Notes: generated by a model not told the origin, from the letters alone. Counted from the stretch's first letter, positions 14,306 to 28,481 are shown. The stretch is DNA of 64,000 nucleotides from Clostridia bacterium (GCA_017398485.1 JAFQFY010000075.1:8768-72767), one strand, 5' to 3'. Numbers and translations: made by a program.

Positions 14306-14485
14306 TCAAAACATATCCGTCACGTTTTCCAGCAGATCTCCGATGGAATGCAGCGTTCTCCCGGCGTTGCGTTTGAGCCCTTTTTTGTTCTTTTTCACAT
14401 AGCAGGTGCCGACCACGCCGACCGCAACGCCGACCGCGACGCCCATGCCCATCCCTTTCATGAAATTGCAGAATGTCTTGCGCAT
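14306..14485 (-). CDS. 59-aa small membrane protein (below the ORF-track cutoff)
   Basis: My translation is MRKTFCNFMKGMGMGVAVGVAVGVVGTCYVKKNKKGLKRNAGRTLHSIGDLLENVTDMF. AAAGGAGG RBS lies about 8 nt upstream and a terminator follows immediately. Confidence 0.6.
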   Translation of the reverse strand: MRKTFCNFMKGMGMGVAVGVAVGVVGTCYVKKNKKGLKRNAGRTLHSIGDLLENVTDMF

Positions 14486-15190: not shown

Positions 15191-15233
15191 AACTTGTAAG
15201 GTTTACTGACAATAGACCAAAGGAGTGTTGAGT

Positions 15234-15596
15234 ATGGACGATCTGCGTTTAGGCGTCGTGGAGGCGCGGTTTGCGGACATCGTGTGGGCGCACGCGCCCA
15301 TCGCCTCGGGAGAACTCGTGCGGTTGTGCGGACAGGAACTGGAATGGAAAAAGTCCACCACCTACACCGTCCTGCGCAAGCTGTGCGACCGCGGAATTTT
15401 CCAAAACGAGGGCGGCGTGGTGAGTGCCCTGCTCACGCGCGACGCGTTTTACGCCGCACAAAGCCGACGCTTCGTCGAGCAGACCTTTGACGGCTCGTTG
15501 CCGGCGTTTCTCGCCGCGTTTACGGGCGGTCGGGCGCTGACCGATAAGGAGATCGCTGAAATTCAGCAGTTGATCGACGCACACAAGGAGGGATGA
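15234..15596 (+). CDS. BlaI/MecI/CopY-family transcriptional repressor
   Basis: About 120 aa winged helix ('EWKKSTTYTVLRKLCDRGIFQNE'). AAAGGAG RBS before ATG 15234. Stop overlaps the downstream M56 gene start (ATGA). Confidence 0.85.
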   Translation: MDDLRLGVVEARFADIVWAHAPIASGELVRLCGQELEWKKSTTYTVLRKLCDRGIFQNEGGVVSALLTRDAFYAAQSRRFVEQTFDGSLPAFLAAFTGGRALTDKEIAEIQQLIDAHKEG

Positions 15597-18394
15597 GCAT
15601 GCAAGCGGTATTTCTGCAAATCCTCAACATGAGCCTGACGGCAAGCTGGCTGGTGCTCGCCGTGGTTATCCTGCGCGTGCTGCTCAAACGCGCGCCCAAA
15701 GCGATCCGCTGCGTGCTGTGGGCGTTTGTCGGCCTTCGTCTGGCGTGTCCGTTCTCCATCGAGAGCGCGCTGAGCCTCATTCCGAGCGCCAAACCGATCC
15801 CCGACACCATCACCACCGACGCCACGCCGACCATCAACAGCGGCGTGCCGGCGGTCAACGCCGTAGTCAACCCTGTACTGTCCCAAAGCTTTACACCAAA
15901 TCCCGGCGACAGCGTTAACCCCATGCAGATACTCGCCTTTGTTGCCGCCGTAGCATGGCTGGTCGGCATCGCGGTGTTGCTTGTCTACGCCGCGGTGAGC
16001 TTTTGGCGCGTGCGACGGCAGGTGGGTGCAAGCCTGCATCTGCGCGACAACGTATACCTCTGTGACGGTCTGCCCTCCCCTTTTATCCTCGGCATCCTGC
16101 GTCCGCGCATCTATCTGCCGACGGGTCTCGACGACGAGGCAACCGCCCATATCCTCGCGCACGAGCAGGCACACCTGCGCCGCCGCGACCATTGGTGGAA
16201 GCCGCTGGGGTATCTGCTTTTGACGGTGCACTGGTTTAACCCGATCGTATGGGTGGCGTATATCCTACTGTGCCGCGACATTGAGCTCGCCTGCGACGAG
16301 CGCGTCGCGCGTACCCTCGACGAGGACGGCAAAGCCGCCTATTCGAGCACCCTGCTCGCCTGTGGCGCGCACCGCCGCATGGTCACCGCCTGCCCCCTCG
16401 CGTTCGGCGAGGTCGGCATCAAGGCGCGCGTCAAATCGGTGCTCAGCTATAAAAAGCCGACGCTTTGGATCCTGCTCGCCGCAGTTCTTGCCGCCGTCGC
16501 GGTCGCCATCGGGTTTTTGACCAACCCGACAAACAAGATGCCGCCCGACGGCACCTACCGCGCCGAACAAAGCGTCTGCATCGTGGATCACGGCTCGGTC
16601 TCCTCCTACGGTATGCTAAACGATCTCGACTGGCGTGTCAAAGGCGGTTCCCTATGGGCTCTCTACGACGGCAGTTTATCTGAAACAAATCTCGGTGAGT
16701 TAGAGTCCTTTACGCTGACCGAGGAGAATTTCGATAACTTCTTCAAGCAGGAATTGCGTCCCGATAGCCATTTCGTCGACTGGCGCGTCGACACGGACGC
16801 CGCCACCCTGCGTATGCAAACGAAACGCGCGTGGCGTTGCAAGCAAACAGAGCATAACGAATACTATTACATCCTGCAAGCGCGCGATGGCAGCTACTAC
16901 GCCTGCTACGGCGTATCGGCAGACGTGGTGTCCGACATTGCACGCAACTACGCGTATATCACCAGGCTCAACCTTACCACCGCCGACGGCGTGTTGCCCA
17001 AAACCGGCCTGTACGAACCGGGCGAAGTGCTCTGCCGTTTTGAAGGCGAGACATACGGTTTCAACCAAAATGCATCCTCGTTATTCATCGATAACGGTAC
17101 ATTATTTCTGTTAGGCGACGCCGGAAATTTGGAAATCGGAAAATTCGAGCCATTCACACCGAACAAAGAGAATTTCGACGCATTCTTTAAATCCCGCGGC
17201 AACGTTGTCGGAAACATGGTATGGAATGCCGACTCCTCTGCCGCCGAACTGCGCCAAAACACACATGCCGCATGGCGAATCGTCACCACCAACGGACACC
17301 CCTGCTATTATTATCTGCTGGAAATGAATAACGGCGAACTGATTTTCTGTGACGGCATGAGCGATACCGTCATGCACAATTTCTTCATCGTCAACAAAAT
17401 CGCACCCATCAAAGGCTTCTGCGCCACGGTGTTGGAGGTGCAGCAAAACCATCTGCTCGTCGCACCGTTTGAGGGAGAGGAGATCCGCCGCTGTTCCGAC
17501 AGGATCGAGGTGCCGACGAGTCTGCTTTCCTACGAAGTGCCCGAGTTGTACAGCGGTGACCAAGTGTGGATCGGTTACGACGGCGACGTACAGGACACCT
17601 ACCCTGCCCGTTTGGCGAGCTTGCCGATTTCCATCGTACATATCAAAGGACACCGCGATCTCTCCACCGTCGGCACCTATGCCGTTGAGATCACCGAATC
17701 GCGTAATGATCGGCTCGAAACGGTCTATACGCGCAAAGAAGGCGTCGAAGAGGACTACAACCTCCACTATTTCACCATCAACGACGCGACCATCGTCATC
17801 GGCAACAAGCCCGTCAGCCTTAAAACGGCGCTCGCAAACGGTAGTATCACCACAGCGCAGTTACTGCTGCAAGCCAACAAGGACGCCAACGCCGACATTT
17901 GTCACGAAGATGCGTACGATGACGGCGGCTCGATCCTGTACTCGTATGACGGCTACCGTCTGCTGCTGCGATACAGCAACACTGAATGGGGCGACGCGAC
18001 GACGGGTCTGTACGACCTGTATCTGATGTCCCACTACGGCTCTCTTGATACGCTTGAACGCGTGTTGTACGGCGAAACGGAAGATACGGGCAGTACGACG
18101 ACCACAGCCGCTACGACCGTGTCCACCACCACCACGAAAAGAGTGCCGGACACCTGCAAGGTCAACCCGACGGTCATCGTCGCGATCGAGGGCGACCGGG
18201 TCATCGTCGACGCCAAAGACCATTATATCCACGTAAACGACAGCCGCTATAACGGCTACGACCGTTATGCGTTCGCCGTCGACAACATCGGTGATTTTCA
18301 GGTCGGCGATAAGGTGAAAGTCGTCCACGACGGCTCCTTCACCGACGGCGAGCCGCCGCGCGGCAGACTGCTCTCCATCAGCCGCATAGAATAA
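15593..18394 (+). CDS. BlaR1/MecR1-like M56 metalloprotease signal transducer with a 620-aa non-PBP extracellular region
   Basis: TM helices plus the zinc motif 'HEQAHLRRRDHWWK' (aa 189-202) and a last TM at about aa 290-310. The C-terminal region has an internal duplication, a Thr-rich linker and two small 'GDxVxV..DG...(S/T)YP'-type domains. Confidence 0.8.
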   Translation: MSMQAVFLQILNMSLTASWLVLAVVILRVLLKRAPKAIRCVLWAFVGLRLACPFSIESALSLIPSAKPIPDTITTDATPTINSGVPAVNAVVNPVLSQSFTPNPGDSVNPMQILAFVAAVAWLVGIAVLLVYAAVSFWRVRRQVGASLHLRDNVYLCDGLPSPFILGILRPRIYLPTGLDDEATAHILAHEQAHLRRRDHWWKPLGYLLLTVHWFNPIVWVAYILLCRDIELACDERVARTLDEDGKAAYSSTLLACGAHRRMVTACPLAFGEVGIKARVKSVLSYKKPTLWILLAAVLAAVAVAIGFLTNPTNKMPPDGTYRAEQSVCIVDHGSVSSYGMLNDLDWRVKGGSLWALYDGSLSETNLGELESFTLTEENFDNFFKQELRPDSHFVDWRVDTDAATLRMQTKRAWRCKQTEHNEYYYILQARDGSYYACYGVSADVVSDIARNYAYITRLNLTTADGVLPKTGLYEPGEVLCRFEGETYGFNQNASSLFIDNGTLFLLGDAGNLEIGKFEPFTPNKENFDAFFKSRGNVVGNMVWNADSSAAELRQNTHAAWRIVTTNGHPCYYYLLEMNNGELIFCDGMSDTVMHNFFIVNKIAPIKGFCATVLEVQQNHLLVAPFEGEEIRRCSDRIEVPTSLLSYEVPELYSGDQVWIGYDGDVQDTYPARLASLPISIVHIKGHRDLSTVGTYAVEITESRNDRLETVYTRKEGVEEDYNLHYFTINDATIVIGNKPVSLKTALANGSITTAQLLLQANKDANADICHEDAYDDGGSILYSYDGYRLLLRYSNTEWGDATTGLYDLYLMSHYGSLDTLERVLYGETEDTGSTTTTAATTVSTTTTKRVPDTCKVNPTVIVAIEGDRVIVDAKDHYIHVNDSRYNGYDRYAFAVDNIGDFQVGDKVKVVHDGSFTDGEPPRGRLLSISRIE

Positions 18395-18397
18395 GCC

Positions 18398-18436
18398 AAA
18401 AAAAGAAGCTCCCTACCGTGTAGGGAGCTTCTTTTT
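18398..18436. terminator. bidirectional rho-independent terminator between the BlaR1-like gene and the ABC exporter
   Basis: A7-GAAGCTCCCTA-ccgtg-TAGGGAGCTTC-T5. Confidence 0.85.
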
Positions 18437-20087
18437 ATTCACAAAAGCGTCCGTCCTCGATGCGGATCACACGGTCGCATACGCCGAGCGCCGCCGGGCG
18501 GTGAGAAATACAGATGCAGGTCTTGTCCGTCAGCGCGCGCAGGTTGCGCAGCACCGTTTCCTCGGTCGCCTCGTCGAGTGACGCGGTCACCTCGTCGAGC
18601 AGCAATATCGGTGCGTCACACAGCACCGCGCGCGCGATCGCGAGGCGTTGCAGTTGCCCCTCGGACAATCCCGAACCGCGCTCGCCGAGCGGCGTGTCAA
18701 GCCCATTCGGCAGGCTCGCGATGACATCGTCGATCGCCGCGACCTTGGCCGCGGCCATGATCTGCTCATCGGTCACGTCAGGGCAACAGAACGCGATGTT
18801 CTCGCGTATCGTACCCGATAGAAGAATGCTCTGTTGCGGCACGTAGGCGAACAGCCCACGCGTGTCGGCGCCGAGCGCATATCGGCCGTCGTCGGTGGCG
18901 ACCTCCAGCGTGCCGCTCTGCGGTGCATAAAACCCAAGCATAAGCTTAAACAGCGTCGTTTTGCCGATACCCGAAAAGCCGCTGAGCGCGACAAACTCGC
19001 CGCGACGAACGGTCAGCGACGCATCGGTGAGGATCGGGTGCTCCGGCTCATAGGCAAAGGTCACCCCGTTGATCGCCAGCGCCTGCGGCGTCACGCTCTT
19101 GCAATCAAGAGCCTGCTGTGCGCGCGGCTCGTCCGGCAGGTCCTCCAACTCAATGAGCCGCTCTGCCGACGCGATCATGTGATAGTATTGCGGCAACACA
19201 TGGGACATCTGCATAAACGGCATACGGATCTGGCTGACGATCTGCAAAAACGCGGTCAACGTGCCGTAAGAGATCGCACCGGCCGCCAGACGTAATGCAC
19301 CCCAAGCGAGCGCCGCGTAGTAACTGCCCGAAAACAGAATGTGGATCGAAGCGTTGGAAAAGCTGCTCCACCGATTGCGCGCGATCGAACGGTCAAAATG
19401 TACCTTCAAACGATCCCATAGCCGACCGCGCACGTGTTCACTGCCCTCGAACGACTGGATCATCATCCAGTTTTCCAGGCTCTCCTGCGTATACGAGCGC
19501 GCTTTTCCGTCGCTTTCCTGCGTCTGCTTATGTAAGACCTTCACCCGTTTACCGAACAGGCGGCTTACCGCCACGAGCACAACGCCGAGCGCGAGCATCA
19601 CCGCCGTGAAGCGTGCATCCAGCATCAACAGCACCGCAAGGCACGCGACAAGGCGCGTCGTGAGCGACACGATGCGTGGGATAAGCGACACCACTCCGTT
19701 GGCGACAAAGTGGCTATCAGAATTGAGACGGTTGAGCAGCTCGCCCGAATGGAAACGGCTGACGTCCTGCCACTTCTTTTTGAACAACGTAGCAAACACG
19801 GTGTCCTTGATGCGCATCTCCATGCGCCCGAGGATGCGCGCGGTGAACTGACTGTTGAACACATCCATCGCCACCTGAAACAACAGCACGATAAACAGCC
19901 CTGCAATATTCCACCAGAGGTTCCCCTGCTGGTCACCGAGGGCAATGTCGATCACGCGCTGGGTCAGCACCGCAAACACCACCGTCGTCAACGAGGTGAT
20001 GCCCGTCGTCACCGACAGCAGCACAATGCGCGCCATATCCGCACGCGAAACGCGCCATATCCAGTTTTTTGCCGAGGATTTTTTCAT
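18435..20087 (-). CDS. ABC exporter, fused permease/ATPase half-transporter (no C39 peptidase domain)
   Basis: Six-helix TMD followed by an NBD. Walker A 'GFSGIGKTT', signature 'LSEGQLQRLAIARA', Walker B 'ILLLDEVT'. Start is coupled to the upstream stop (TGATATG). Confidence 0.9.
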   Translation of the reverse strand: MKKSSAKNWIWRVSRADMARIVLLSVTTGITSLTTVVFAVLTQRVIDIALGDQQGNLWWNIAGLFIVLLFQVAMDVFNSQFTARILGRMEMRIKDTVFATLFKKKWQDVSRFHSGELLNRLNSDSHFVANGVVSLIPRIVSLTTRLVACLAVLLMLDARFTAVMLALGVVLVAVSRLFGKRVKVLHKQTQESDGKARSYTQESLENWMMIQSFEGSEHVRGRLWDRLKVHFDRSIARNRWSSFSNASIHILFSGSYYAALAWGALRLAAGAISYGTLTAFLQIVSQIRMPFMQMSHVLPQYYHMIASAERLIELEDLPDEPRAQQALDCKSVTPQALAINGVTFAYEPEHPILTDASLTVRRGEFVALSGFSGIGKTTLFKLMLGFYAPQSGTLEVATDDGRYALGADTRGLFAYVPQQSILLSGTIRENIAFCCPDVTDEQIMAAAKVAAIDDVIASLPNGLDTPLGERGSGLSEGQLQRLAIARAVLCDAPILLLDEVTASLDEATEETVLRNLRALTDKTCICISHRPAALGVCDRVIRIEDGRFCE

Positions 20088-20088
20088 A

Positions 20089-20658
20089 TCAGTTCCCCTT
20101 AAACAATCGGATACATTTATTTTTCACGCGGCGCGGCAGATGGTAAAACCAAACAAGCGGTGCACGAAGCGGCAACAGCCTGTGCCAACGCAGACAGCGG
20201 CGGCGATAGGCGGTGCTGTGACAATCAATGCATTTACCGTCGCGGATAAACGCCGCGGCAACCGCCAGAATCTGTTCGGGACGCACGTTCGGCTCGCGCT
20301 CGGTCTGCGCGTCACCGAGCATGGTGTAGGTCAGCCCACTGCTCGAATGCATCGACGGCAACGTTTGCTTTTCGCCGTAGAAACGGCGCTTTTTGCCGTC
20401 ATCGCGCTCGACGATGCGGTGCAGCACGATCTGTCCGTTGTCGCGGCGATACAGCGGCACGTCGCCCGTGCGCAACACCGTCGGATCCGACGGTTTGACC
20501 AACACCACCTGATCGCGCTCATGCCGCAAAAACGGGCTCATACTGTAACCGGTGACGGTCAGCCGAACCTCCTGCCCCATATCAAGGCATTCCAGCATCA
20601 GCGGTGTCAGCTGTGCCTGGGATACCCGGGTCATTTGCGAAGCGTTTTCGCTTTTCAT
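20089..20658 (-). CDS. S24/S26-family (Sec11/SipW-like) serine peptidase without a membrane anchor
   Basis: Boxes 'VTGYSMSPFL', 'GDVPLY' and 'IVLHRIVER'. No N-terminal hydrophobic helix. Cys/Arg-rich C-terminal tail. ATGA overlap with the upstream gene. Confidence 0.7.
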   Translation of the reverse strand: MKSENASQMTRVSQAQLTPLMLECLDMGQEVRLTVTGYSMSPFLRHERDQVVLVKPSDPTVLRTGDVPLYRRDNGQIVLHRIVERDDGKKRRFYGEKQTLPSMHSSSGLTYTMLGDAQTEREPNVRPEQILAVAAAFIRDGKCIDCHSTAYRRRCLRWHRLLPLRAPLVWFYHLPRRVKNKCIRLFKGN

Positions 20659-20918
20659 GCGAGCAAAGCCGCCTCGCGCAAGCTGTCAATAAAGCGAGCC
20701 ACGTCTGCACGCGCGGCGTCCTCGGTGACGTCGTATTCCTCCAACAGCGCCGCCGTCAACGCCTCCTCGGTGATCTCCTTCTGTAGCTTTTGCCACAAGA
20801 ATGCGCCGGTGTCGTTGAGCGTAAGCATGCAGTTAAAATCCACCGTCTGCGCGCCGATGGGTACGACGATGTGGTGACCGCCGATCCGGCGCAGAACAAA
20901 TCCGTCTTTGAGTTTCAT
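20655..20918 (-). CDS. PqqD-family peptide-binding protein (RiPP recognition element-like)
   Basis: 87 aa: 'MKLKDGFVLRRIGGHHIVVPIG...MLTLNDTGAFLWQKL...EEYDVTEDAARADVARFIDSLREAALL'. AGGAGGG RBS. Only the last 87 codons of ORF-track entry 20655-21455 are used. Confidence 0.8.
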   Translation of the reverse strand: MKLKDGFVLRRIGGHHIVVPIGAQTVDFNCMLTLNDTGAFLWQKLQKEITEEALTAALLEEYDVTEDAARADVARFIDSLREAALLA

Positions 20919-20919
20919 A

Positions 20920-21813
20920 TCAGTGTCCCTCCTGAGAGAATATCGCGTTATACGCGGTTTCCACCGCCTCACGGCTGATGTTGCAGGCAAGTCCGTAGAT
21001 CGGCACGCTCGCCAGCAGACGCTCGGTAAAATCCAACACCCGAACGCCGAGCGATTCGTCGTAATACGGTCGCGCAATCTGGGTGGTAAGGTTGAGCATG
21101 CTGTCCACCGTGTCCAAGCGGCGTACGGCGTTCTCGGTGCCGCGCTCGATGAACACGATCGCGCGCAACGGCACGGCAAGGTTGCGGTTGAGCGCGGTCT
21201 TTCCGCTCCACGGCGTGCCGCAGATCCTCGCCTGCTCGCCGTCAAAATAGATGGCAGGCTTATCGTCGTTGACGATCTCGACCGCATCACCGAAATATTC
21301 CTTCCACAAACCCGTGTGGGTGGATTTGCCCGTGCCGGAATGGGCGGAGAAGGCAACGCCTTTTCCTTTGTACGCCAGGCACGAGCTGTGCAACACGCCG
21401 CCGCCGAGATACGACAGGCGGTTCTGGAACGAGATGCCGGTGTACATATATTCAAAGTCAGTCAGCGTAAAGGTCGGATGATGCCGACCCGAGAACAATT
21501 CGATATCCACGCGCGCATAGTCGGGGGTGAAATAGATGGCAAACAGCACAGGGCCGTTCTCCCCCGACGGAGTGACGCCGTGCGCATAACGGCAGAAGCG
21601 ACCGTCCGCCAGACGCACCACAGTTATGTTCTTAATGCGCTCGACAAGCTCGCCCTCAGGCACGCGCACCTCACCGACGCGGCGGGTACGCATGACCATG
21701 ACCGGCTCACGCGCGTCATCGCGCACATAGTCGGCAAAGCGCTTGGCAAAAAACGCCTTATCCGCGCTCTCCACGCGAATCGGCAGACCGGCAACGCACA
21801 GATCCATTGACAT
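20920..21813 (-). CDS. HPr-kinase-like P-loop protein (HprK C-terminal-domain family)
   Basis: 'HSSCLAYKGKGVAFSAHSGTGKSTH' parallels the HprK block 'HGVLVDVYGVGVLITGxSGVGKSE'. GGGAGGG RBS. First gene behind the promoter at 21845-21873. Confidence 0.7.
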   Translation of the reverse strand: MSMDLCVAGLPIRVESADKAFFAKRFADYVRDDAREPVMVMRTRRVGEVRVPEGELVERIKNITVVRLADGRFCRYAHGVTPSGENGPVLFAIYFTPDYARVDIELFSGRHHPTFTLTDFEYMYTGISFQNRLSYLGGGVLHSSCLAYKGKGVAFSAHSGTGKSTHTGLWKEYFGDAVEIVNDDKPAIYFDGEQARICGTPWSGKTALNRNLAVPLRAIVFIERGTENAVRRLDTVDSMLNLTTQIARPYYDESLGVRVLDFTERLLASVPIYGLACNISREAVETAYNAIFSQEGH

Positions 21814-21844
21814 ACCCTCCCATCATAAAAGTACATATATATTA

Positions 21845-21873
21845 ATTCTATCAAGATTCTTTAAACAAGTCAA
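21845..21873 (-). promoter_or_regulatory. sigma-A-type promoter TTGACT-17-TAGAAT for the HprK-like/PqqD/peptidase/ABC operon
   Basis: -35 is complementary to 21868-21873 and -10 to 21845-21850, with an exact 17-nt spacer, about 30 nt upstream of the first start codon. Confidence 0.6.
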
Positions 21874-21875
21874 CT

Positions 21876-21914
21876 AAAAATAAACGGGCGACCGACAAAA
21901 GTCGGTCGCCCGTT
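21876..21914 (-). terminator. rho-independent terminator ending the phage-like head/holin operon
   Basis: Hairpin AACGGGCGACCGAC-tttt-GTCGGTCGCCCGTT followed on the minus strand by TATTTTT. Confidence 0.8.
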
Positions 21915-21922
21915 CAATCCGA

Positions 21923-22219
21923 TCAGCTCTTCTTTGCCGTCGTTATGCGGCTGACGAAATCCGCCAGATAGTTGGAGCCTCTGGCAATCAGGACACCGGT
22001 CAGCACGCGACCGCCGATGTCCCCCAGCTCAATGCCCAGCACGCCGAACAGGTCCGCGCCCGACATTAAGCACAGCAGCACCGACACCACTGCCGCGAGC
22101 AGCTGTACGATCAGTGTCTTCCAACCGCCCTGCGTCAGCGCGCCGAGCAGAGACTTGGCGTATTCCACCAACGCTTCCACTGTCACCGCCAGCATGGCGG
22201 TCAATGCGATTTGTGTCAT
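21923..22219 (-). CDS. putative phage holin
   Basis: 98 aa with 2-3 hydrophobic helices and a charged C-terminus ('RITTAKKS'). An 'RGSNYLADF' box resembles phi-LC3-type holins (from memory). AGGAGA RBS lies 5 nt before ATG 22219. Last gene of the operon. Confidence 0.6.
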   Translation of the reverse strand: MTQIALTAMLAVTVEALVEYAKSLLGALTQGGWKTLIVQLLAAVVSVLLCLMSGADLFGVLGIELGDIGGRVLTGVLIARGSNYLADFVSRITTAKKS

Positions 22220-22233
22220 TGCGTTCTCCTTTC

Positions 22234-22524
22234 TCACTCCGTATGTTCCAATGCGTTGAGTCGATGGTGCGCGTTCTTCACCGACTCCTCCAGCCGTGTG
22301 ACACGATCCTTCACGTCTCCGAGCTGTACGCGGATATCCGCCATGAGCACGTCGCTTTTATCCACCTGTCCTCGAATGTGCTTAATGTCCGAGCGCATCT
22401 CGGTCAGTTCCCCTGCTTTTCGCTCGTTTTTGTCACGCAACGAACGCAGATTGACGATCAACGCGACGATCACGCCCAACGCCGACACAATCGACAGCCA
22501 ATCGGTCAGGCTCGGCGCCGTCAT
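22234..22524 (-). CDS. phage-cassette membrane-anchored coiled-coil protein, unknown function
   Basis: N-terminal TM helix 'LSIVSALGVIVALIVNL' followed by a heptad-rich helix. ATGA overlap with the upstream small ORF. Confidence 0.6.
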   Translation of the reverse strand: MTAPSLTDWLSIVSALGVIVALIVNLRSLRDKNERKAGELTEMRSDIKHIRGQVDKSDVLMADIRVQLGDVKDRVTRLEESVKNAHHRLNALEHTE

Positions 22525-22667
22525 TCACTCTCTCCGTCGGATTTTTGTCCGTCGGCCTCCGTGGTCTTTGCGCGGCGTTGCCGCATATACGCGGCAAGGT
22601 CGCGTTGCAACACCAAACGGTCGAGTGCTTCACGATCGTAAGCCTTTACACCTCTCGGTTTTTCCAT
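22521..22667 (-). CDS. 48-aa phage-cassette ORF (not in ORF track)
   Basis: My translation is MEKPRGVKAYDREALDRLVLQRDLAAYMRQRRAKTTEADGQKSDGESE. GGGAGGA RBS. Stop overlaps the next ATG. Overlaps the 3' end of the upstream gene by 22 nt. Confidence 0.4.
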   Translation of the reverse strand: MEKPRGVKAYDREALDRLVLQRDLAAYMRQRRAKTTEADGQKSDGESE

Positions 22668-23029
22668 AGCACGTCCTCCCGTTTCGCAAAACTGCCGCCT
22701 GCGTGGGATGCCGCGCGATGATACAGCGACAAAAAGCGATCATGCAACGCCTGCGCTTCGCCGTCAGCACACAGCAGCATTGCCGTGCCGTAGGCCAACG
22801 CCGGCATAAAGCGGCAGGGCAACAACAGCGGCTGCTGCAACGCGTCGAGCGGCGTGAACGCCGTACGATGCTCCCTGCTCCACAATTCGCCGTATATCTG
22901 GTTGACCATCGCCAGACCAGCATCATCCGCGTCTGCGGTGGCGGCACGCTTCTCATCCCCAAGCAAGCCGCACGCTTGTTTGAGTATCATGACTCCGGTC
23001 AAGGGTATCCCTCCTTGCGCGAAAATCAA
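22646..23029 (-). CDS. phage-cassette protein following the capsid gene (possible head-completion/connector protein)
   Basis: Function suggested by position only. The listed start is TTG overlapping the capsid stop. An AAGGAGGG RBS favours TTG at 23002 or ATG at 22990. Confidence 0.5.
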   Translation of the reverse strand: MIFAQGGIPLTGVMILKQACGLLGDEKRAATADADDAGLAMVNQIYGELWSREHRTAFTPLDALQQPLLLPCRFMPALAYGTAMLLCADGEAQALHDRFLSLYHRAASHAGGSFAKREDVLWKNREV

Positions 23030-23937
23030 TAGACGTAGGTGTACACACCGCCGGAGAGGCTGTTTTTGAGCACCACGTCATAGTACAGACGGTAGTCCAT
23101 CTTCCATGCGTCTGCCTGCAGGTTGTGCGCCGGGTCAAAGCAACGCACCTGCTCGGTCTTCTTGATGAGCGACGCGGCACGGCGCGGCATGACCAGCAGA
23201 CCGATGCTCTTGGCGCCCTCGGCGGGAACGAAGCCGCCCTCCTGCTGACCGTCGGTGACACCGTCGTTAAAGGTGTAGGCAGTCTTCATGCGGCTGTCCG
23301 GCACGGGCAGGATCGACACACCGTTGAAGGAGGTCACGTCGGTGTGCATCTCGCCGCGCTTGAAGCTGCCGACAACCAGCATGCGAGAGATCTCCGGGCT
23401 GTTCTGCAACGCCGACCACATAGCGCTGTCGACGAACGCAATGAGTTCTTCGTCGTAGCCGACCTCGTTCTGCACGTTGGCGATGGCGGTGGTGAGCATG
23501 GTCAGCGCCTCGGTGGTGGGATTGCCGCTGACCGTCTGAGAGACGCCGGCGGCATAGCCGGCGATCTTGGACAACACGTAAGCGTCCACCTCGGGCACGA
23601 CCTGCGTGCGCACAAACTCGCCCATGATCTGACCGGCGAGATCCGCCACGCCGGACTCGTCGTGGTCCTCACGGTCGAGCTGGAAGGAGCGGCCGCGGTC
23701 CATGGTCAGCGTAAAGGGCGTTGCAGATACCGATACCGTGCCGTTGACAAAGCCGGTGTCGCGGTTATAGTCGCCGAGACCCGATACGTTCATCTCGGGG
23801 ATCATGACCGTCTTGGCACCGACGAACTTGCCGCGCAGGTTGTTATCCGCAAGAAAGCCGGTAACCGGCTTTTCGGCAACCGCCTTGTCCAACTCGTCGG
23901 TCATCTTTTTGGAGATCATTTCTAAATTCAGGCTCAT
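23026..23937 (-). CDS. putative phage major capsid protein
   Basis: 303 aa, placed directly after the acidic scaffold-like gene in the terS-terL-portal-scaffold order. General resemblance to small HK97-fold capsid proteins (from memory, no motif claim). Confidence 0.65.
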   Translation of the reverse strand: MSLNLEMISKKMTDELDKAVAEKPVTGFLADNNLRGKFVGAKTVMIPEMNVSGLGDYNRDTGFVNGTVSVSATPFTLTMDRGRSFQLDREDHDESGVADLAGQIMGEFVRTQVVPEVDAYVLSKIAGYAAGVSQTVSGNPTTEALTMLTTAIANVQNEVGYDEELIAFVDSAMWSALQNSPEISRMLVVGSFKRGEMHTDVTSFNGVSILPVPDSRMKTAYTFNDGVTDGQQEGGFVPAEGAKSIGLLVMPRRAASLIKKTEQVRCFDPAHNLQADAWKMDYRLYYDVVLKNSLSGGVYTYVY

Positions 23938-23961
23938 ACTACATTTTCCTTTCTGTTACTG

Positions 23962-24417
23962 TTATTTTAACGCCGTACGAAATGCCCGAAGAAAAGCGTC
24001 CTGCTCAGGATGTGTGTCCACCGTCCCCTGCTGCAAGGAGCCGGCGGAACTGGCCGCCGCCTGCTGACGACGCTGCTGTTCGCGCTCGACGCGCTTTCGC
24101 TCCTCGTGGCAAAAACGCAAATACGCGTCAAACAGCGATATAGACTTCTCCGCCGCCATATCCAGCACCGCATCGGGCAACTGGTCCGGACGCTCAATAG
24201 ACGGGAATTCTTCGCGCAGAAGAATAAACTCCTCGGCAAGTCGGTGGGTGATGTCCGACTCATCCGCCGTCTCCTCCTCTGCAGCGTCCTCACACGGCGC
24301 AATTTCTGCTTGCGGCGGCAGTACCGTTTGTTCGTCCTGCGTCGGCAAGGGTGCCTCCTCGATCGGCATGCTCTCTTCGGGCGCGACCTCTACGGGTCGC
24401 CGTTCTTCCATTTCCAT
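23962..24417 (-). CDS. putative phage scaffolding protein
   Basis: 151 aa with a very acidic N-terminal half and a helical, Gln/Arg-rich C-terminal half. Lies between portal and capsid. Confidence 0.55.
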   Translation of the reverse strand: MEMEERRPVEVAPEESMPIEEAPLPTQDEQTVLPPQAEIAPCEDAAEEETADESDITHRLAEEFILLREEFPSIERPDQLPDAVLDMAAEKSISLFDAYLRFCHEERKRVEREQQRRQQAAASSAGSLQQGTVDTHPEQDAFLRAFRTALK

Positions 24418-24472
24418 GCTATACCTCCTAAATCATGAATTCCCCCTCCTTTCCTGTCGGATCGGTGAGAGT

Positions 24473-26104
24473 TTATTTCAGCTCCTGCAACAAGGCGTCC
24501 AGCTCGGGAACATAGCCCTGCGGCAGACGGCTGAGATACTGTTTTGCGGTGAGTACGCCGTTTTTGTAGAGATTATCCAGCGTCTCCACCGTACGCAATT
24601 CGCTGTACGGGTTGCCGGTGCCGACATCCACGCGAATATCCAGCAACAGATCACGGTATTTCTCCGCCTCAAAAGGCATATACCAAACGCCGCCGTCCCG
24701 ACGGATCTTCAAAGCGCGGTTGCCGTACATCGCCATCCAGAACTCACACCAGATGCGCGCCACATTCTCAATGAAGTGATAATAGCGGTTTTGCACCATC
24801 TGCAACGGCATCAGCGACGCCTCGCGAACCGCCAGGATCGCCGAAGCGTTATCCGGTTTGATATCGCCGAGCAGGGCACTGCTGATACCCGACTGCGAGA
24901 GAGTGTCGTTGATAAGGTTGTGCACGTTGGCATCCAACTGAGCGGTGAACGCCGGCGGATCGACATACCGTATCGCGTTCTGCACCTCTTCGCCTGCTCC
25001 GTATACCGGAATGACCTGCCCCGGATCGTTGGTGATGGGCTGCTGCACCACGTCGCCGTTGACCAGCATGATGGGCATGCCCATCATCATCACCGCCCAC
25101 ACACCTGCCGACACCGTGCGGTTGATGGCGATCTGATTTGGGATTAGATTGGGGATTTCACTCTCGCCGTAGGCGCGACAGCGCTTTTCTTCCCAACGAA
25201 ACAACGACAAGGGGTATAACTTTACACCGAGATCCCATTCGGGACGCACTACGGCGCCGCGACAAACCTGTACGGCTTTGACGCGACAAGCACTGCCGTC
25301 CTCGTTCCACTCCTTCCAGAAGCGCGTGATGACCGTCGCGTGCGCACTCATATCATCGCCGCCCTCGTCGGGACGAACGGAACGCCAATCCGCACTGCCG
25401 TAATGCTTCGCCATACGTTGCAAGCGTTCCGCCGGCTTGCGCTGTTCAATGAGAATATACGGTTGCTGTTGCAGATCCTCCAGCAACGGATCACCGACGT
25501 ACACGTGGTCGATCTCCAACACCTCACACGAAATGTCGCCGCAGATCGGCGCGGTGCGCGACACGTCGGCGTACAGACCGGTGCGTATACTATCGTCCCA
25601 ATAGGTATACAGCACACCCGTGCCGGTGATATAGGCGTTGCGAAGTGCTTGGCGACCGAGGGTATCCAGACAAAGGCGGCGCGAAGTGGTGGCAAAATAA
25701 TCCGTCAGCGCGGCGGCAATCGTCTGCGCCTGTTCATCCGCCGAGATCGGTTCGTTCATCGACCCTCCCTGTTGCAGTTGGCCGCGGATCGCGCTGACGC
25801 GCTCCTTGACCGCCGGCGTGTCAGGCAGGCCCTCTGCCGAAAACTGCACCGACACCGGTGCCGCGGCGACCACCGCCATTTTATAATCTGCGATACGGCG
25901 AATAACGTTGTGTCGCACCAGAGGGCGATTGTCCCCACAGTTGACGCCGTACCACTGATCGCCGGAATAAAAGCGCTCGTTGATGCGGTTCTGCTCAAAC
26001 ATGCCGTGCTTGCCGAGCGATTCCTTGTAGGTCACGCAACGGTGGTATTCGGAAAACACCTGTTGCGGCGTGACGCGGTTTAATCGGATGACCTTTTCAC
26101 TCAT
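24473..26104 (-). CDS. phage portal protein
   Basis: 543 aa, positioned after terL. The N-terminal 'NERFYSGDQWYG' block resembles SPP1 gp6-type portals (from memory). Confidence 0.7.
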   Translation of the reverse strand: MSEKVIRLNRVTPQQVFSEYHRCVTYKESLGKHGMFEQNRINERFYSGDQWYGVNCGDNRPLVRHNVIRRIADYKMAVVAAAPVSVQFSAEGLPDTPAVKERVSAIRGQLQQGGSMNEPISADEQAQTIAAALTDYFATTSRRLCLDTLGRQALRNAYITGTGVLYTYWDDSIRTGLYADVSRTAPICGDISCEVLEIDHVYVGDPLLEDLQQQPYILIEQRKPAERLQRMAKHYGSADWRSVRPDEGGDDMSAHATVITRFWKEWNEDGSACRVKAVQVCRGAVVRPEWDLGVKLYPLSLFRWEEKRCRAYGESEIPNLIPNQIAINRTVSAGVWAVMMMGMPIMLVNGDVVQQPITNDPGQVIPVYGAGEEVQNAIRYVDPPAFTAQLDANVHNLINDTLSQSGISSALLGDIKPDNASAILAVREASLMPLQMVQNRYYHFIENVARIWCEFWMAMYGNRALKIRRDGGVWYMPFEAEKYRDLLLDIRVDVGTGNPYSELRTVETLDNLYKNGVLTAKQYLSRLPQGYVPELDALLQELK

Positions 26105-26300
26105 ACTGTTCCTCCTTGTTTATCGGCATTTCGGTTCCGTCATAGTACAGAAAATTACGCGTGTTCTCCCAATGTTTTTCATCCTGCCGCACGGGCAGTC
26201 TGCGTCTTGGCGGTTTCGGCGGCATGCGGGTCTGCCGCCGATGCACGAACAGAAACGGCAGCATCACCGCGATGCCGCATATAAACCCAACCAATACCAT
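26097..26300 (-). CDS. small phage-cassette membrane protein
   Basis: 67 aa with N-terminal TM 'VLVGFICGIAVMLPFLFV' and a basic Pro-rich tail. GGGGGAGAG RBS before ATG 26300. Overlaps the portal start by 8 nt. Confidence 0.5.
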   Translation of the reverse strand: MVLVGFICGIAVMLPFLFVHRRQTRMPPKPPRRRLPVRQDEKHWENTRNFLYYDGTEMPINKEEQYE

Positions 26301-26314
26301 ACTCTCTCCCCCTT

Positions 26315-27607
26315 TCACTGCGTCCAGCCGCCGCGAAACCCGTAGCGGCGCGGCGTTTCCCTTTTAGTACTCGTGCGCGGCGCGTCCTCCATTGCGTAGC
26401 GCAGGGCATCCATCAGGTGATTGTCCCGATCGGTCGGGCGGTTAATGAACGTCCCGTCGCGCACGCCCTGCTGCCAGCAATACGCCGCCAGCTCGGCGGC
26501 GGTGTGCACGCATCGCTCGTGCACGAGCAGGCGGTATTCCTGCAACCGTGCGATGCCTGCGTTGACCGAGTCAGGACCCTTGCACGCCGCCTGGATTCGC
26601 CCGATCCCCAGCCGCCGCAGATCGTCGTTGGATTTCGGCTCGGCACTGTCGGCGCGGATGCGTTCTTTTTGATAGCCTTTTTCCTTGATCATCGCCGCGA
26701 TGTCCTCATTGAGCATACGCGTCTTATAATACTCGTCGTAAATATAGATGACCTTGTGCGTTTCATCCACCGCCGCGGCGATAAAGGCGGTGGGATCGTT
26801 GGTGTAGCCGTAGTCGAGGCCGAACACGTGACGCAGGCCCTCGCGCCGCAGCTCTTGCAGTGAGAACGCCTCCACCTGCCAGTTCTCGAACACCAAACCC
26901 TCGCTGTGTCCCCACTGACCGAGTCCGGCGACCGCGTATTGCCGCGGATTATTCAGCCGCATCTGCTCGTACAGCGCACGGTCGGTGTCGTCGAGGAACT
27001 CGTTACAGCGATAGTCGGTGGTGATAGCCAGCACCTGTTCGTCGGCGCGGTCAAAGAATCGCCCTTTAAGCCAATGGTTTTCGTTCCACGGATTGAACGT
27101 CAGCGTCGTCTGCTTAAACAGCGGCGGCGATACCTGCCCGCGCGGCGCCGAGAGATCGAGCTTGTCAAAATCCGCCTCCCGTGCGATCTCGAACGCCTCC
27201 TCCACCCACACCCAGCACAGCACGCCTTTGGTAACGGTGGTGGAAGCAAGCTTCTCGACATTATCGAGTCCTCGGAACAGAATGCGCTGACCCGTCGGGC
27301 GATAGCGCAATTCCAGCGGCTCGCGGCTTGCCTGCCACAGATGCTCAACCTTTAACCGACGGATCGCCCAGTTGAGCTGTGCAAAGGTGCTGTCGACATG
27401 GGTGCGATGCACCTGCCGCACGACCAGAAGATTTGCCTGCGGATATTTCATCATGTGCAGGATATACCACAGCGCCGTGGTGGAGGATTTTTTGGAAGCC
27501 TTACCGCCCTTGACGACGCGATACCGCCGCCGACAGCGCCAAAACTCGCCGTAACCGCCGCCGACGATCTCCGGCAACGACACCACCGTGCCGATGCCCT
27601 CGATCAT
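26315..27607 (-). CDS. phage terminase large subunit (PBSX-like)
   Basis: N-terminal ATPase with P-loop-like 'VVKGGKASKKSS' and Walker-B-like 'LCWVWVEEAFE'. C-terminal nuclease-like 'VFGLDYGYTNDPTAF'. ATG 27607 overlaps the upstream stop (ATGA). Confidence 0.8.
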   Translation of the reverse strand: MIEGIGTVVSLPEIVGGGYGEFWRCRRRYRVVKGGKASKKSSTTALWYILHMMKYPQANLLVVRQVHRTHVDSTFAQLNWAIRRLKVEHLWQASREPLELRYRPTGQRILFRGLDNVEKLASTTVTKGVLCWVWVEEAFEIAREADFDKLDLSAPRGQVSPPLFKQTTLTFNPWNENHWLKGRFFDRADEQVLAITTDYRCNEFLDDTDRALYEQMRLNNPRQYAVAGLGQWGHSEGLVFENWQVEAFSLQELRREGLRHVFGLDYGYTNDPTAFIAAAVDETHKVIYIYDEYYKTRMLNEDIAAMIKEKGYQKERIRADSAEPKSNDDLRRLGIGRIQAACKGPDSVNAGIARLQEYRLLVHERCVHTAAELAAYCWQQGVRDGTFINRPTDRDNHLMDALRYAMEDAPRTSTKRETPRRYGFRGGWTQ

Positions 27608-27777: not shown

Positions 27778-27778
27778 G

Positions 27779-28171: not shown

Positions 28172-28214
28172 AAGCACCTCCCGATATTGCATTTTGCAAC
28201 TTTACGGATAAAAA

Positions 28215-28409: not shown

Positions 28410-28427
28410 GTTCTCACCTCGTAAACA

Positions 28428-28439: not shown

Positions 28440-28450
28440 GTCTGTAAATA

Positions 28451-28479: not shown

Positions 28480-28481
28480 TA

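What the first reader, a model, noticed from the sequence alone, without database searches (positions are those of the whole stretch)
18435..21873. Orphan peptide-maturation/export operon: HprK-like P-loop protein, PqqD-type recognition protein, TM-less S26 peptidase and ABC exporter, with no cyclase, no radical-SAM enzyme and no precursor gene
Seen: four minus-strand ORFs (20920-21813, 20655-20918, 20089-20658, 18435-20087) are joined by TGATATG / ATGA / TGATATG stop-start junctions. They are driven by a TTGACT-17-TAGAAT promoter (21845-21873) and closed by a strong hairpin terminator (18398-18436). ORF1 carries 'HSSCLAYKGKGVAFSAHSGTGKST', which mirrors the HPr-kinase C-terminal P-loop block (H-G-V-L-x4-G-x-G-V-L-x2-G-x-S-G-x-G-K-S). 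ORF2 is an 87-aa PqqD-like protein. Known: PqqD-like domains are the leader-peptide recognition elements of RiPP pathways. HprK-like kinases phosphorylate lasso-peptide precursors in paeninodin-type clusters. Those clusters also contain an Asn-synthetase-like cyclase and a transglutaminase-like protease, and neither is present here. No ORF of any size fits between the promoter and ORF1 or after the exporter. Inference: this is a RiPP-like or signalling-peptide system that matches no class I can name, for example a phosphorylated, leader-trimmed linear peptide, and its substrate is encoded elsewhere.
Basis: partly seen in the sequence, partly recalled or inferred. Interest (0 to 1): 0.8.

Follow-up and report, generated by a model that had tools for sequence, protein, structure and literature searches.

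The report
Orphan ScmC–PqqD peptide maturation/export operon
This four-gene operon from an uncultured Clostridia bacterium most likely modifies, trims and exports a small ribosomal peptide encoded elsewhere in the genome, and it belongs to a very large gene-cassette family that databases list but, as far as I could find, nobody has studied experimentally.

Summary
Four translationally coupled minus-strand genes lie between a promoter-like site and a strong terminator.

- **ORF1** has a PEPCK/HPr-kinase fold with a P-loop. Pfam files the identical protein under PF27840 "ScmC". It gave no hit to the Pfam-A library, which should include Hpr_kinase_C.
- **ORF2** is a PqqD domain, closest to lasso-peptide B1 chaperones.
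- **ORF3** is a soluble Sec11/SipW-type (Ser-His) signal-peptidase homologue.
- **ORF4** is a half-size ABC exporter.

The ORF1 family is very large: 9,071 clusters at 50% identity and at least 589 species, mostly Clostridia. About 29 of 80 retrieved loci carry all four genes.

These share a conserved leader (M-K-K-x-Y-x-K-P-x-L-E…E-D-I-I-T-x-S) followed by variable acidic cores. No lasso cyclase recurs. Radical-SAM enzymes appear in only 3 loci.

The 64-kb window has no such precursor. Stand-alone precursor loci do exist elsewhere, so a substrate encoded elsewhere is plausible.

Related cassettes often sit in polysaccharide loci. The chemistry, possibly phosphorylation, is inferred and not shown. 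I rate this a new variant of a known kind.

The parts
21845..21873 (-). Sigma-70-like promoter TTGACT-17-TAGAAT with a TG-extended -10
   Evidence: the only match in 18200-22400, 10 of 12 positions. It lies between the upstream terminator and the ORF1 ribosome-binding site. The motif alone is not above chance.
21881..21916 (-). Intrinsic terminator that closes the upstream phage-like module and separates it from the operon
   Evidence: 16-pair stem with 10 G-C pairs, followed by a T run.
20920..21813 (-). ORF1: ScmC-family P-loop protein with a PEPCK/HPr-kinase fold. The likely true start is the ATG at 21807 (295 aa).
   Evidence: The 100%-identical P0001 carries PF27840, which names ScmC. AlphaFold2 pLDDT is 92.9. 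Foldseek finds PEPCK 1oen at E = 3e-8 and L. casei HprK/P 1kkm at E = 9e-7. H142, S144, G160-T161-G162-K163-S164-T165-H166, N182-D183-D184-K185-P186 and G199-T200-P201-W202-S203-G204-K205 are invariant in 19 homologues.
20655..20918 (-). ORF2: 87-aa PqqD-type leader-recognition (RRE) protein
   Evidence: PF05402 at E = 2e-18. Best NCBIfam hits are lasso_PqqD_Strm (E = 1e-10) and lasso_PqqD_Bac, both below cut-off. The best PDB sequence hits are lasso B1 proteins 9x90_B, TfuB1 and TbiB1.
20089..20658 (-). ORF3: soluble Sec11/SipW-type (S26B, Ser-His) signal-peptidase homologue, the putative leader peptidase
   Evidence: G37, S39, M40, P42, D66, G75, L79, H80, R81, G115 and D116 are invariant. 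The family profile hits human SEC11C/SEC11A and aligns SGSMEP, VHRV and GDNN. It scores below cut-off on TIGR02228 (32 bits) and Peptidase_S24. No hydrophobic segment is visible by eye.
18435..20087 (-). ORF4: half-size ABC exporter (TMD plus NBD) without a C39 peptidase domain
   Evidence: ABC_membrane at 2e-30 and ABC_tran at 4e-27. It resembles MsbA, BmrA, Sav1866 and ABCB1.
18398..18436 (-). Intrinsic terminator that closes the operon
   Evidence: -28.2 kcal/mol, z = -6.7, followed by a U run.

Best explanation
The operon is an orphan copy of a widespread Clostridia cassette (ScmC, PqqD, a soluble S26B peptidase and an ABC exporter) that matures and exports small ribosomal peptides.

Proposed steps:
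1. ORF2 (the PqqD recognition protein) binds the N-terminal leader of a short precursor. In relatives this leader is M-K-K-x-Y-x-K-P-x-(L/I/F)-E-...-E-D-I-I-T-x-S, which contains the Y-x-x-P-x-L element known from lasso-peptide leaders.
2. ORF1 (ScmC, a PEPCK/HprK-fold P-loop enzyme) uses ATP to modify the bound peptide. Ser/Thr O-phosphorylation is the most likely reaction, by analogy with the HprK-like kinases of paeninodin-type lasso clusters.
3. ORF3, a cytoplasmic Sec11/SipW-like Ser-His peptidase, removes the leader, probably after the conserved T/A-x-S, which fits the -3/-1 rule of type I signal peptidases.
4. ORF4 exports the product.

No lasso cyclase is involved, so the product is not a lasso peptide. 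In this genome the precursor is not within the 64 kb seen and is presumed to lie elsewhere.

**Shown here:** gene identities, folds, conserved catalytic residues, co-occurrence of the genes, adjacency of precursors in relatives, and the existence of unlinked precursors.
**Inferred:** who binds what, the chemistry of ScmC, the cleavage site, and that this particular copy has a substrate.
For: - **Anatomy.** Four translationally coupled genes have their own promoter-like site and terminator.
- **Family size.** More than 5,302 hits in the 90% clusters, 9,071 clusters at 50% identity and at least 589 species genomes.
- **Co-occurrence.** Of 80 loci, 29 show all four genes by tblastn, mostly in the same order. 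By ORF clustering, PqqD is in 55 loci, the S24-like gene in 45 and an ABC gene in 36.
- **Precursors.** 20 short ORFs with one conserved leader (E from 2e-11 to 9e-5) lie upstream of ScmC in 12 of the 80 loci. The same holds in L081-L084. It also holds in 9 metagenome loci where enough downstream sequence exists.
- **Recognition protein.** ORF2 is nearest to lasso B1 recognition proteins. PqqD proteins of orphan and precursor-linked cassettes keep the same conserved residues: G22, L34, N35, W42, Y62, D72 and F76.
- **ScmC.** The model has pLDDT 92.9 and matches PEPCK and HprK/P. It has an invariant His, a P-loop Lys-Ser and an Asp-Asp.
- **Peptidase.** ORF3 keeps the Ser, His and Asp motifs of Sec11.
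- **Leader end.** In 88 leaders, position 21 is T/A/S and position 23 is S/T/G. Conservation stops after that point.
- **Unlinked precursors.** L091, L095 and L102 have no cassette within 5 kb or more. Their G+C is 0.54-0.61, similar to the window clade at 0.52-0.59.
- **Precedent.** HprK-like kinases phosphorylate lasso precursors, and an NTP_transf_5 enzyme decorates them further (PMC7533575, read). NTP_transf_5 accompanies ScmC in 13-14 of the 80 loci.
Against: - No precursor is present in the 64-kb window, nor in the closest relatives L001-L005, L007-L020, L085 and L087. The central claim is therefore untested for this copy.
- Most cassettes in the sample, roughly three quarters of those with a PqqD gene, have no detectable adjacent precursor.
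- ORF1 reaches no curated kinase profile. Phosphorylation is an analogy only.
- Sister loci L121-L126 have lost the ABC gene, so export by ORF4 is not obligatory.
- The frequent embedding in polysaccharide loci is not explained by a simple secreted-peptide model.
- A soluble S26B enzyme acting as a leader peptidase has no precedent that I know of.
Confidence: 0.6

Rival explanations
1. The cassette is a cell-envelope or exopolysaccharide accessory module rather than a producer of a diffusible peptide. It would act on a protein or a lipid- or glycan-linked intermediate of capsule or EPS assembly, or make a peptide whose only role is inside that pathway. The MsbA-like ABC protein would flip or export that intermediate.
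For: - 19 of 80 loci have Wzz/BY-kinase, CpsB phosphatase, Bac_transf or LCP genes within 7 kb. VanZ occurs in 7 loci, and SLH proteins also recur.
- The radical-SAM subgroup (L028, L048, L067) sits inside full polysaccharide loci. These contain GT4, a Wzx-like Polysacc_synt, Polysacc_synt_2, a glutamine-dependent Asn synthase and a NusG-like gene.
- L124-L126 have an EPS locus about 3 kb away.
- Most cassettes lack an adjacent precursor.
- ORF4 scores best against MsbA-type models.
Against: - Where a short ORF is present, it carries a conserved leader of the kind recognised by PqqD-type proteins and lies immediately upstream of ScmC.
- The window has no polysaccharide genes within the stretches I annotated.
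- PqqD domains are known only as peptide-binding modules (established knowledge).
Confidence: 0.17
2. The window copy is a relic. It was once linked to a precursor, is now substrate-less and is on its way to decay.
For: - No precursor lies within 64 kb.
- Sister species have already lost the ABC gene (L121-L126).
- BlaI/BlaR1 genes are inserted next to the cassette in the window, relative to L085 and L087.
Against: - All four ORFs are intact and translationally coupled.
- The catalytic residues of ORF1 and ORF3 are invariant in relatives with 54-74% identity.
- ORF2 is 57-76% identical to its counterpart in the nearest related loci (L085, L087, L001-L003), similar to or higher than ORF1 in most of them. 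That indicates purifying selection.
- Stand-alone precursors exist in contigs of similar G+C.
Confidence: 0.12
3. The operon is cargo of the adjacent phage-like element, for example a defence or exclusion module, or it serves that element.
For: A head-only phage-like module (repressor, large terminase, portal, scaffold, major head protein) lies directly upstream on the same strand. The pairing is kept in L001-L003, L085, L087 and L121-L126.
Against: - A strong terminator and a separate promoter-like site lie between the two.
- The pairing also keeps the same housekeeping flanks, so it looks like vertical synteny.
- Most other cassettes have no phage genes nearby.
- No ScmC relative was found in 2.9 million viral contigs.
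- PADLOC gives no hits except generic ABC ATPase matches.
Confidence: 0.04

Closest known systems
SynChlorMet (SCM) cassette of TIGRFAMs/NCBIfam: ScmC (TIGR04249), ScmD PqqD-like (TIGR04248), ScmE/ScmF radical-SAM/SPASM (TIGR04250/04251); Pfam PF27840 'ScmC'
   Same: - ORF1 and all sampled relatives give their best NCBIfam hit to ScmC.
- The identical database protein is tagged PF27840 ScmC.
- ORF2 hits ScmD weakly.
- Relatives L028, L048 and L067 have the ScmC plus PqqD pair together with ScmE/F-like radical-SAM/SPASM enzymes and Cys-rich precursors.
   Different: - The window operon and most relatives have no radical-SAM enzyme.
- They add a Sec11-like peptidase and an ABC exporter.
- Scores are far below the equivalog cut-off (19 bits against 125).
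- I found no literature on the SCM cassette, so it offers a name but no mechanism.
Paeninodin/pseudomycoidin-type lasso-peptide clusters of Firmicutes (precursor, B1 PqqD, B2 protease, C cyclase, D ABC exporter, HprK-like kinase, NTP_transf_5)
   Same: - The recognition protein is lasso-B1-like.
- Leaders of related precursors contain Y-x-x-P-x-L. That this is the lasso leader motif is my own knowledge.
- The cassette has a P-loop enzyme with an HprK fold, an ABC exporter and, in 13-14 of 80 loci, an NTP_transf_5 gene.
- The kinase and nucleotidyltransferase precedents are described in PMC7533575.
   Different: - No Asn-synthetase-like cyclase and no transglutaminase-like B2 gene are present in the operon, and none recurs in relatives.
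- The leader is about two residues longer between the P-x-L element and the conserved Thr.
- ORF1 is in the ScmC family, not Hpr_kinase_C.
- The peptidase belongs to a different clan (S26B).
ER/archaeal/SipW-type signal peptidase I (MEROPS S26B: Sec11, SipW)
   Same: - The motifs G-x-S-M-x-P, x-H-R-x and G-D-x-x align to SEC11A and SEC11C.
- The catalytic Ser and His are invariant.
- The T/A-x-S end of the leader fits the -3/-1 rule (plus established knowledge).
   Different: - It has no membrane anchor and carries a basic C-terminal tail.
- It sits in a cytoplasmic operon context.
- It scores below the curated cut-offs.
- The presumed substrate is a hydrophilic leader, not a signal peptide.
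HPr kinase/phosphorylase and ATP-dependent PEP carboxykinase
   Same: - The fold matches.
- A His lies upstream of the P-loop, the P-loop carries Lys-Ser, and an Asp-Asp follows about 20 residues downstream. I compared this layout with HprK/P from memory.
   Different: - No sequence-profile match was found.
- The extra invariant motif G-T-P-W-S-G-K is, as far as I recall, absent from HprK/P.
- The partner is a PqqD protein, not HPr.

Membership tests
PqqD family (Pfam PF05402) | Score above the Pfam gathering threshold over the whole domain | tested here: met
   ORF2 scores 66.7 bits against a cut-off of 23.4 and covers profile positions 2-67 of 67.
Lasso-peptide B1 chaperone (NCBIfam NF033530 / NF033536) | Score above the curated cut-off | tested here: not met
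   41.7 bits against 70, and 33.8 bits against 80. These are nevertheless the best hits.
Lasso-peptide biosynthetic cluster | An Asn-synthetase-like cyclase (C) and a transglutaminase-like protease (B2) next to the precursor | tested here: not met
   Neither is among the four genes of the operon. No such family recurs in 80 loci. The PP-loop motif scan finds one Asn synthase in 126 loci, and it is a glutamine-dependent enzyme inside an EPS locus.
HPr kinase/phosphorylase (Pfam Hpr_kinase_C, PF07475) | Match to the family profile | tested here: not met
   ORF1 has no Pfam-A hit at E <= 0.1. A profile search of PDB sequences finds no HprK.
HPr kinase/PEPCK-like fold | Structural similarity, plus a P-loop Lys-Ser, an upstream His and a downstream Asp-Asp | tested here: met
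   The model has pLDDT 92.9. Foldseek gives E = 3e-8 for PEPCK and E = 9e-7 for HprK/P, with TM about 0.5. H142, K163-S164 and D183-D184 are invariant. The residue-by-residue correspondence to HprK/P was not aligned here.
ScmC (Pfam PF27840) | Pfam hit on the protein | tested here: met
   The hit is precomputed for P0001, the 100%-identical protein, and for nearly all of the 120 listed homologues. PF27840 never appeared in any scan of the local Pfam library, so I could not rescore it.
ScmC equivalog (NCBIfam TIGR04249) | Score of at least 125 bits | tested here: not met
   ORF1 scores 19.4 bits. Relatives score 19-41 bits.
SynChlorMet cassette | Two radical-SAM/SPASM maturases (ScmE, ScmF) alongside ScmC and ScmD | tested here: not met
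   The operon has none. They are present only in relatives L028, L048 and L067.
Signal peptidase I, S26B (Sec11/SipW; TIGR02228) | Catalytic Ser and His/Asp motifs | tested here: met
   S39, H80 and D116 are invariant.
Signal peptidase I, S26B (Sec11/SipW; TIGR02228) | Curated score cut-off and an N-terminal membrane anchor | tested here: not met
   32.1 bits against 51.85. Peptidase_S24 gives 16.6 bits against 23.3. No hydrophobic segment is visible in the sequence by eye; no TM predictor was run.
ABC exporter, type IV fold (ABC_membrane plus ABC_tran) | Both Pfam domains above threshold | tested here: met
   106.6 and 95.9 bits.
Bacteriocin-type peptidase-containing ABC transporter (PCAT) | An N-terminal C39 peptidase domain | tested here: not met
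   The 550-aa protein starts directly with the membrane domain. Alignments to PCAT models begin at about model position 130-160.

The most novel reading that the evidence does not exclude
ScmC cassettes define an undescribed class of ribosomally made, modified peptides, abundant in gut and rumen Clostridia. The peptides would be linear (not lasso) but would use a lasso-type leader and a B1-like recognition protein. A PEPCK/HprK-fold enzyme would modify them. A soluble Sec11-type signal-peptidase homologue would remove the leader, which would be a new job for that protease family. The products would be tied to capsule or exopolysaccharide assembly or its control. In the window's clade the cassette and its precursors would have become unlinked.
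Probability: 0.35. Interest if true: 0.8.

Novelty: new variant of a known kind. Interest (0 to 1): 0.6.

Why it matters
If the model holds, thousands of gut, rumen and environmental Clostridia carry an unstudied peptide-maturation pathway. Three points would interest specialists:

1. A lasso-type leader and recognition protein would be used without a cyclase.
2. A cytoplasmic relative of the eukaryotic and archaeal signal peptidase would act as the leader protease.
3. The pathway would be recurrently linked to capsule and exopolysaccharide loci.

The precursor family found here gives concrete peptides to synthesise and concrete loci to express. Cultured options are Paenibacillus doosanensis (L006), Ruminiclostridium cellobioparum (L067) and Herbivorax sp. 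(L033).

For the window itself the value is lower. This copy is an orphan whose substrate cannot be named from the data at hand.

Tried and rejected
- **Sequence searches of ORF1 against Pfam and PDB** gave nothing beyond the P-loop. Only the fold search was informative.
- **Literature searches** for PF27840, PF14907/NTP_transf_5, SynChlorMet, ScmC and several HprK/PqqD/RiPP combinations found no description of this cassette. The ScmC search was swamped by unrelated acronyms.
- **Other kinds of conserved short ORFs upstream of orphan cassettes** were looked for, using a ribosome-binding-site filter. Only pieces of the phage-like module turned up.
- **The first metagenome scan with the full precursor alignment** failed because no stretch was conserved enough. 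A narrower alignment worked.
- **The large secreted proteins found upstream of precursors** were compared with the window's 933-aa BlaR1-like neighbour. There is no similarity.
- **Defence-system reading:** PADLOC gave only generic ABC hits, and no ScmC was found in viral contigs.
- **Lasso-cluster reading:** rejected for lack of a cyclase and a B2 protease.
- **Linking stand-alone precursor contigs to the window clade through shared genes** (tblastx) gave only a short match to a helix-turn-helix region. This is uninformative.

Full report
**1. The observation**

Their junctions are TGA-T-ATG, ATGA and TGA-T-ATG.

- **Promoter.** The TTGACT-17-TAGAAT site (21873-21845, with TG before the -10) is the only sigma-70-like match in 18200-22400. 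One match is not above the shuffle expectation of 2.0 +/- 1.3, so position is the argument. It lies between a 16-pair terminator that ends the upstream genes (21916-21881) and the GGGAGGG ribosome-binding site.
- **Terminator.** The hairpin after ORF4 folds at -28.2 kcal/mol, z = -6.7.
- **Start codon.** The spacing to the ribosome-binding site and the N-termini of homologues suggest that ORF1 starts at the second ATG (21807, 295 aa). The database copy P0001 starts there.

**2. The four proteins**

*ORF1.* It has no hit in the local Pfam library. In NCBIfam it has only weak hits: ScmC TIGR04249 at E = 5e-4 (19 bits against a cut-off of 125) and HprK_rel_B at E = 0.04.
- The 100%-identical database protein, and nearly all of the 120 listed homologues, carry the precomputed tag PF27840. 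A later table names that family 'ScmC'.
- Eight diverse relatives all give ScmC as their best NCBIfam hit, followed by HprK_rel_A/B and PEPCK.
- An AlphaFold2 model built on 19 homologues is confident (pLDDT 92.9, pTM 0.90).
- Foldseek against the PDB returns ATP-dependent PEP carboxykinases (E = 3e-8, TM about 0.5 over the whole query). It also returns the catalytic domain of Lactobacillus casei HPr kinase/phosphorylase (E = 9e-7, TM 0.51 on the target).
- Invariant in the alignment are H142, S144, the P-loop G160-T161-G162-K163-S164-T165-H166, N182-D183-D184-K185-P186 and G199-T200-P201-W202-S203-G204-K205. The His / P-loop / Asp-Asp layout is that of HprK/P as I remember it.
- 'HprK-like' is therefore right for fold and active-site layout but wrong for family membership.

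*ORF2.* It is a full-length PqqD domain (E = 2e-18). Its best NCBIfam hits are the two lasso-peptide B1 models, both below cut-off. Its only PDB sequence hits are lasso B1 proteins: 9x90_B, TfuB1 6jx3 and TbiB1 5v1u.

*ORF3.*
- In 46 family members G37, S39, M40, P42, L79, H80, R81, G115 and D116 are invariant. D66 is conserved in 93% of them and is invariant in the 14-sequence subset.
- A profile of the family hits human SEC11C and SEC11A. It aligns G-x-S-M-x-P with SGSMEP, L-H-R-I with VHRV and G-D-x-Q with GDNN.
- That is the Ser-His type of signal peptidase I (S26B: Sec11, SipW, archaeal), not the Ser-Lys LexA type.
- It has no hydrophobic anchor and ends in a basic tail.
- PGAP names the near-identical NCBI protein 'S24/S26 family peptidase' and calls ORF1 'hypothetical'.

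*ORF4.* It is an ordinary half-size ABC exporter without a peptidase domain.

**3. The family and its neighbourhoods**

The ORF1 family is very large:
- more than 5,302 proteins in the 90%-identity clusters;
- 9,071 clusters at 50% identity, of which 6,304 have E <= 1e-10;
- at least 589 species genomes. Most are Clostridia (Acutalibacteraceae, Oscillospiraceae and others), with a few cultured strains: Paenibacillus doosanensis, Faecalimonas umbilicata, Ruminiclostridium cellobioparum and Herbivorax.

In 80 loci fetched with 8-kb flanks:
- tblastn finds all four window genes in 29 loci, mostly in the same order;
- clustering of all ORFs gives PqqD in 55 loci, the S24-like gene in 45 and an ABC gene in 36;
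- the next recurrent families are NTP_transf_5 (PF14907) in 14 loci by clustering, or 13 within 7 kb of the ScmC gene. Then come a Wzz chain-length/BY-kinase pair or fusion (13), VanZ (7-8), the CpsB phosphatase (6), Bac_transf (4), LCP (4) and SLH-domain proteins;
- no Asn-synthetase-like or transglutaminase-like family recurs. A PP-loop motif scan of 126 loci finds one Asn synthase, a glutamine-dependent enzyme inside a polysaccharide locus.

**4. Precursors**

*Discovery.* Clustering short ORFs that lie outside the large genes revealed a peptide family immediately upstream of the ScmC gene. A leader HMM then found 20 such ORFs (E from 2e-11 to 9e-5) in 12 of the 80 loci: L006, L021, L022, L028, L033, L041, L048, L056, L060, L067, L075 and L079.

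*Sequence.* The N-terminus is conserved: M-K-K-x-Y-x-K-P-x-(L/I/F)-E-(V/I)-x-x-F-x-V-E-D-(I/V)-I-T-x-S. The Pro is invariant and the Tyr nearly so. After about residue 24 the sequences diverge into short, mostly acidic cores. Examples are ...GGDGYIDFDDIL...SAGMEFDITAEGNEF and ...DDGWY, plus Cys-rich cores.

*Database status.* A profile search of the 5.8-billion-protein collection returned 77 members, all unnamed. Three examined contexts again show precursor, then ScmC, ABC, PqqD and the S24-like gene. One shows precursors, then ScmC, PqqD, S24-like, NTP_transf_5 and Wzz/BY-kinase.

*Metagenome scan.* A scan with the pattern F-[DES]-[VLT]-E-D-[IV]-I-[TA]-[VLA]-S gave 33 further loci. ScmC follows the precursor in 9 of them: L090, L092, L100, L103, L104, L105, L110, L116 and L120. 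In every one of those that extends beyond ScmC, further cassette genes follow too.

*Links to lasso systems.* Y-x-x-P-x-L is, to my knowledge, the element that lasso-peptide B1 proteins recognise. This fits ORF2's affinity to B1 proteins.

*Likely cleavage site.* The leader ends with small residues at positions 21 (T/A/S) and 23 (S/T/G). That is what a type I signal peptidase wants at -3 and -1, so I infer cleavage by ORF3 there.

*The radical-SAM subgroup.* The three loci with Cys-rich cores (L028, L048, L067) also carry ScmE/F-like radical-SAM or radical-SAM/SPASM enzymes. They are true SCM-type cassettes. The window type is the radical-SAM-less majority.

**5. The window copy is an orphan**

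Neither leader HMM finds anything in any frame of the 64-kb window. Nor do they find anything in the close relatives L001-L005 and L007-L020, which were scanned. The gene tables of L085 and L087 show no such gene either. The exact protein is on record on a 64,260-bp contig, so the window is nearly the whole contig.

Three results make a substrate encoded elsewhere reasonable:
- PqqD proteins of 46 orphan and 20 precursor-linked cassettes keep the same conserved residues.
- The catalytic residues of ORF1 and ORF3 are intact, and ORF2 is 57-76% identical to its counterpart in the nearest related loci.
- Precursor loci without any cassette exist. L091 (7.8 kb), L102 (12 kb) and L095 (5.1 kb) carry one or two leader-type ORFs. 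In L091 and L102 these are flanked by a secreted 412/425-aa protein and by housekeeping genes: PolA and Dus in one case, a GH38 mannosidase in the other. L088 is similar. These contigs have G+C of 0.54-0.61, like the window clade at 0.52-0.59. Most precursor-linked loci have lower G+C.

None of this proves that the window's genome has a precursor.

**6. Mechanism and rivals**

*Best reading.* ORF2 binds the leader. ORF1 modifies the peptide using ATP. ORF3 removes the leader. ORF4 exports the product.

Phosphorylation is proposed by analogy. HprK-like kinases phosphorylate lasso precursors, and an NTP_transf_5 enzyme decorates them further (PMC7533575). NTP_transf_5 is the most frequent extra gene next to ScmC. 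The chemistry is not shown.

*Main rival: a role inside capsule or EPS assembly.*
- 19 of 80 loci have hallmark polysaccharide genes within 7 kb.
- The radical-SAM subgroup sits inside complete polysaccharide loci.
- This may be compatible with the peptide model, for example a peptide that regulates or decorates the polymer, but I cannot say how.

*Relic.* This reading is weakened by the conserved catalytic residues, but it is not excluded. Sister loci L121-L126 have lost the ABC gene.

*Phage cargo or defence.* This reading has no support.

**7. What is known, and how new this is**

The closest named entity is the SynChlorMet cassette (ScmC, ScmD, ScmE, ScmF) and the Pfam family ScmC. Both are bioinformatic definitions. 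I found no paper on them in the library.

The closest studied systems are the paeninodin and pseudomycoidin lasso clusters. The present cassette lacks their defining cyclase and B2 protease.

I found no description of three things:
- the radical-SAM-less cassette with a soluble Sec11-like peptidase and an ABC exporter;
- its precursor family;
- its link to polysaccharide loci.

The library does not cover subscription journals, so that absence is weak evidence. I rate it a new variant of a known kind and a good experimental lead. The window's own copy is the least informative kind, because it is an orphan.

Noticed in passing
window 21923-29225 (also L001-L003, L085, L087, L121-L126): A compact head-only phage-like module lies directly upstream of the operon, mostly on the same strand. 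It comprises a CI/LexA-like repressor (28572-29225, plus strand), the large terminase (26315-27637), the portal (24473-26104), a scaffold-like gene (23962-24417), the major head protein (23026-23937, phrog_422 at E = 7e-77), several small genes and a 104-aa membrane protein (21923-22237). No tail, integrase or replication genes were seen in the stretch I annotated. The module and its housekeeping flanks are kept across species whose ORF1 is only 55-74% identical. That suggests a vertically inherited, possibly domesticated, capsid island.
   Followed up: partly
window 14306-14485 (minus strand); L088 113-274; L098 1225-1392: A 59-aa small membrane protein (Gly-rich hydrophobic segment, a KKNKKG linker, C-terminus ...HSIGDLLENVTDMF) is syntenic with the cassette throughout the clade. 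Its C-terminal motif GDL[LM]EN..[DE]MF occurs in 2.7 million scanned residues only in this family and in the cores of two stand-alone leader-type precursors (...DTVGDLMENIIDMFNNLGQ). It is the only sequence in the window that resembles any precursor core, but it lacks the leader. The meaning is unknown.
   Followed up: partly
L121-L126: In sister species the cassette is ScmC, PqqD and the S26-like peptidase only. The ABC exporter gene is missing, while the flanks are unchanged (phage-like module, SpoU-family methylase gene, 59-aa gene, SufBD).
   Followed up: no
window 15225-18394: A BlaI-like repressor (15225-15596) and a 933-aa BlaR1/M56 protein with a long extracellular tail (15593-18394) lie between the operon and the SpoU-family methylase gene. 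They converge on the operon's terminator. They are absent from that position in L085 and L087, so they are a local insertion.
   Followed up: no
L021, L033, L091, L102; L041, L084, L081, L075, L056: Precursor genes are usually preceded by a gene for a large secreted protein. One group of these proteins is mutually homologous: the 412/425-aa proteins of L091 and L102 match the C-terminal halves of the L021 734-aa and L033 580-aa proteins, and the L021 protein carries an InlB B-repeat. This group accompanies precursors with or without a cassette. In L041 one of the upstream proteins has a cohesin domain. The cores ending in GGDGYIDFDDIL resemble a dockerin or EF-hand calcium-binding loop (DGxIDxxD, from my own knowledge, untested).
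   Followed up: partly
L028, L048, L067: A subgroup has Cys-rich precursors, one or two radical-SAM enzymes (SPASM-type in L028), ScmC, PqqD, the S26-like peptidase and an ABC gene. It is embedded in full polysaccharide loci containing GT4, a Wzx-like flippase, Polysacc_synt_2, a glutamine-dependent Asn synthase, a NusG-like gene, CpsB and Bac_transf.
   Followed up: partly
window 29276-32753: Two tandem glycoside hydrolase family 3 genes (569 and 564 aa, minus strand) lie next to the repressor of the phage-like module.
   Followed up: no
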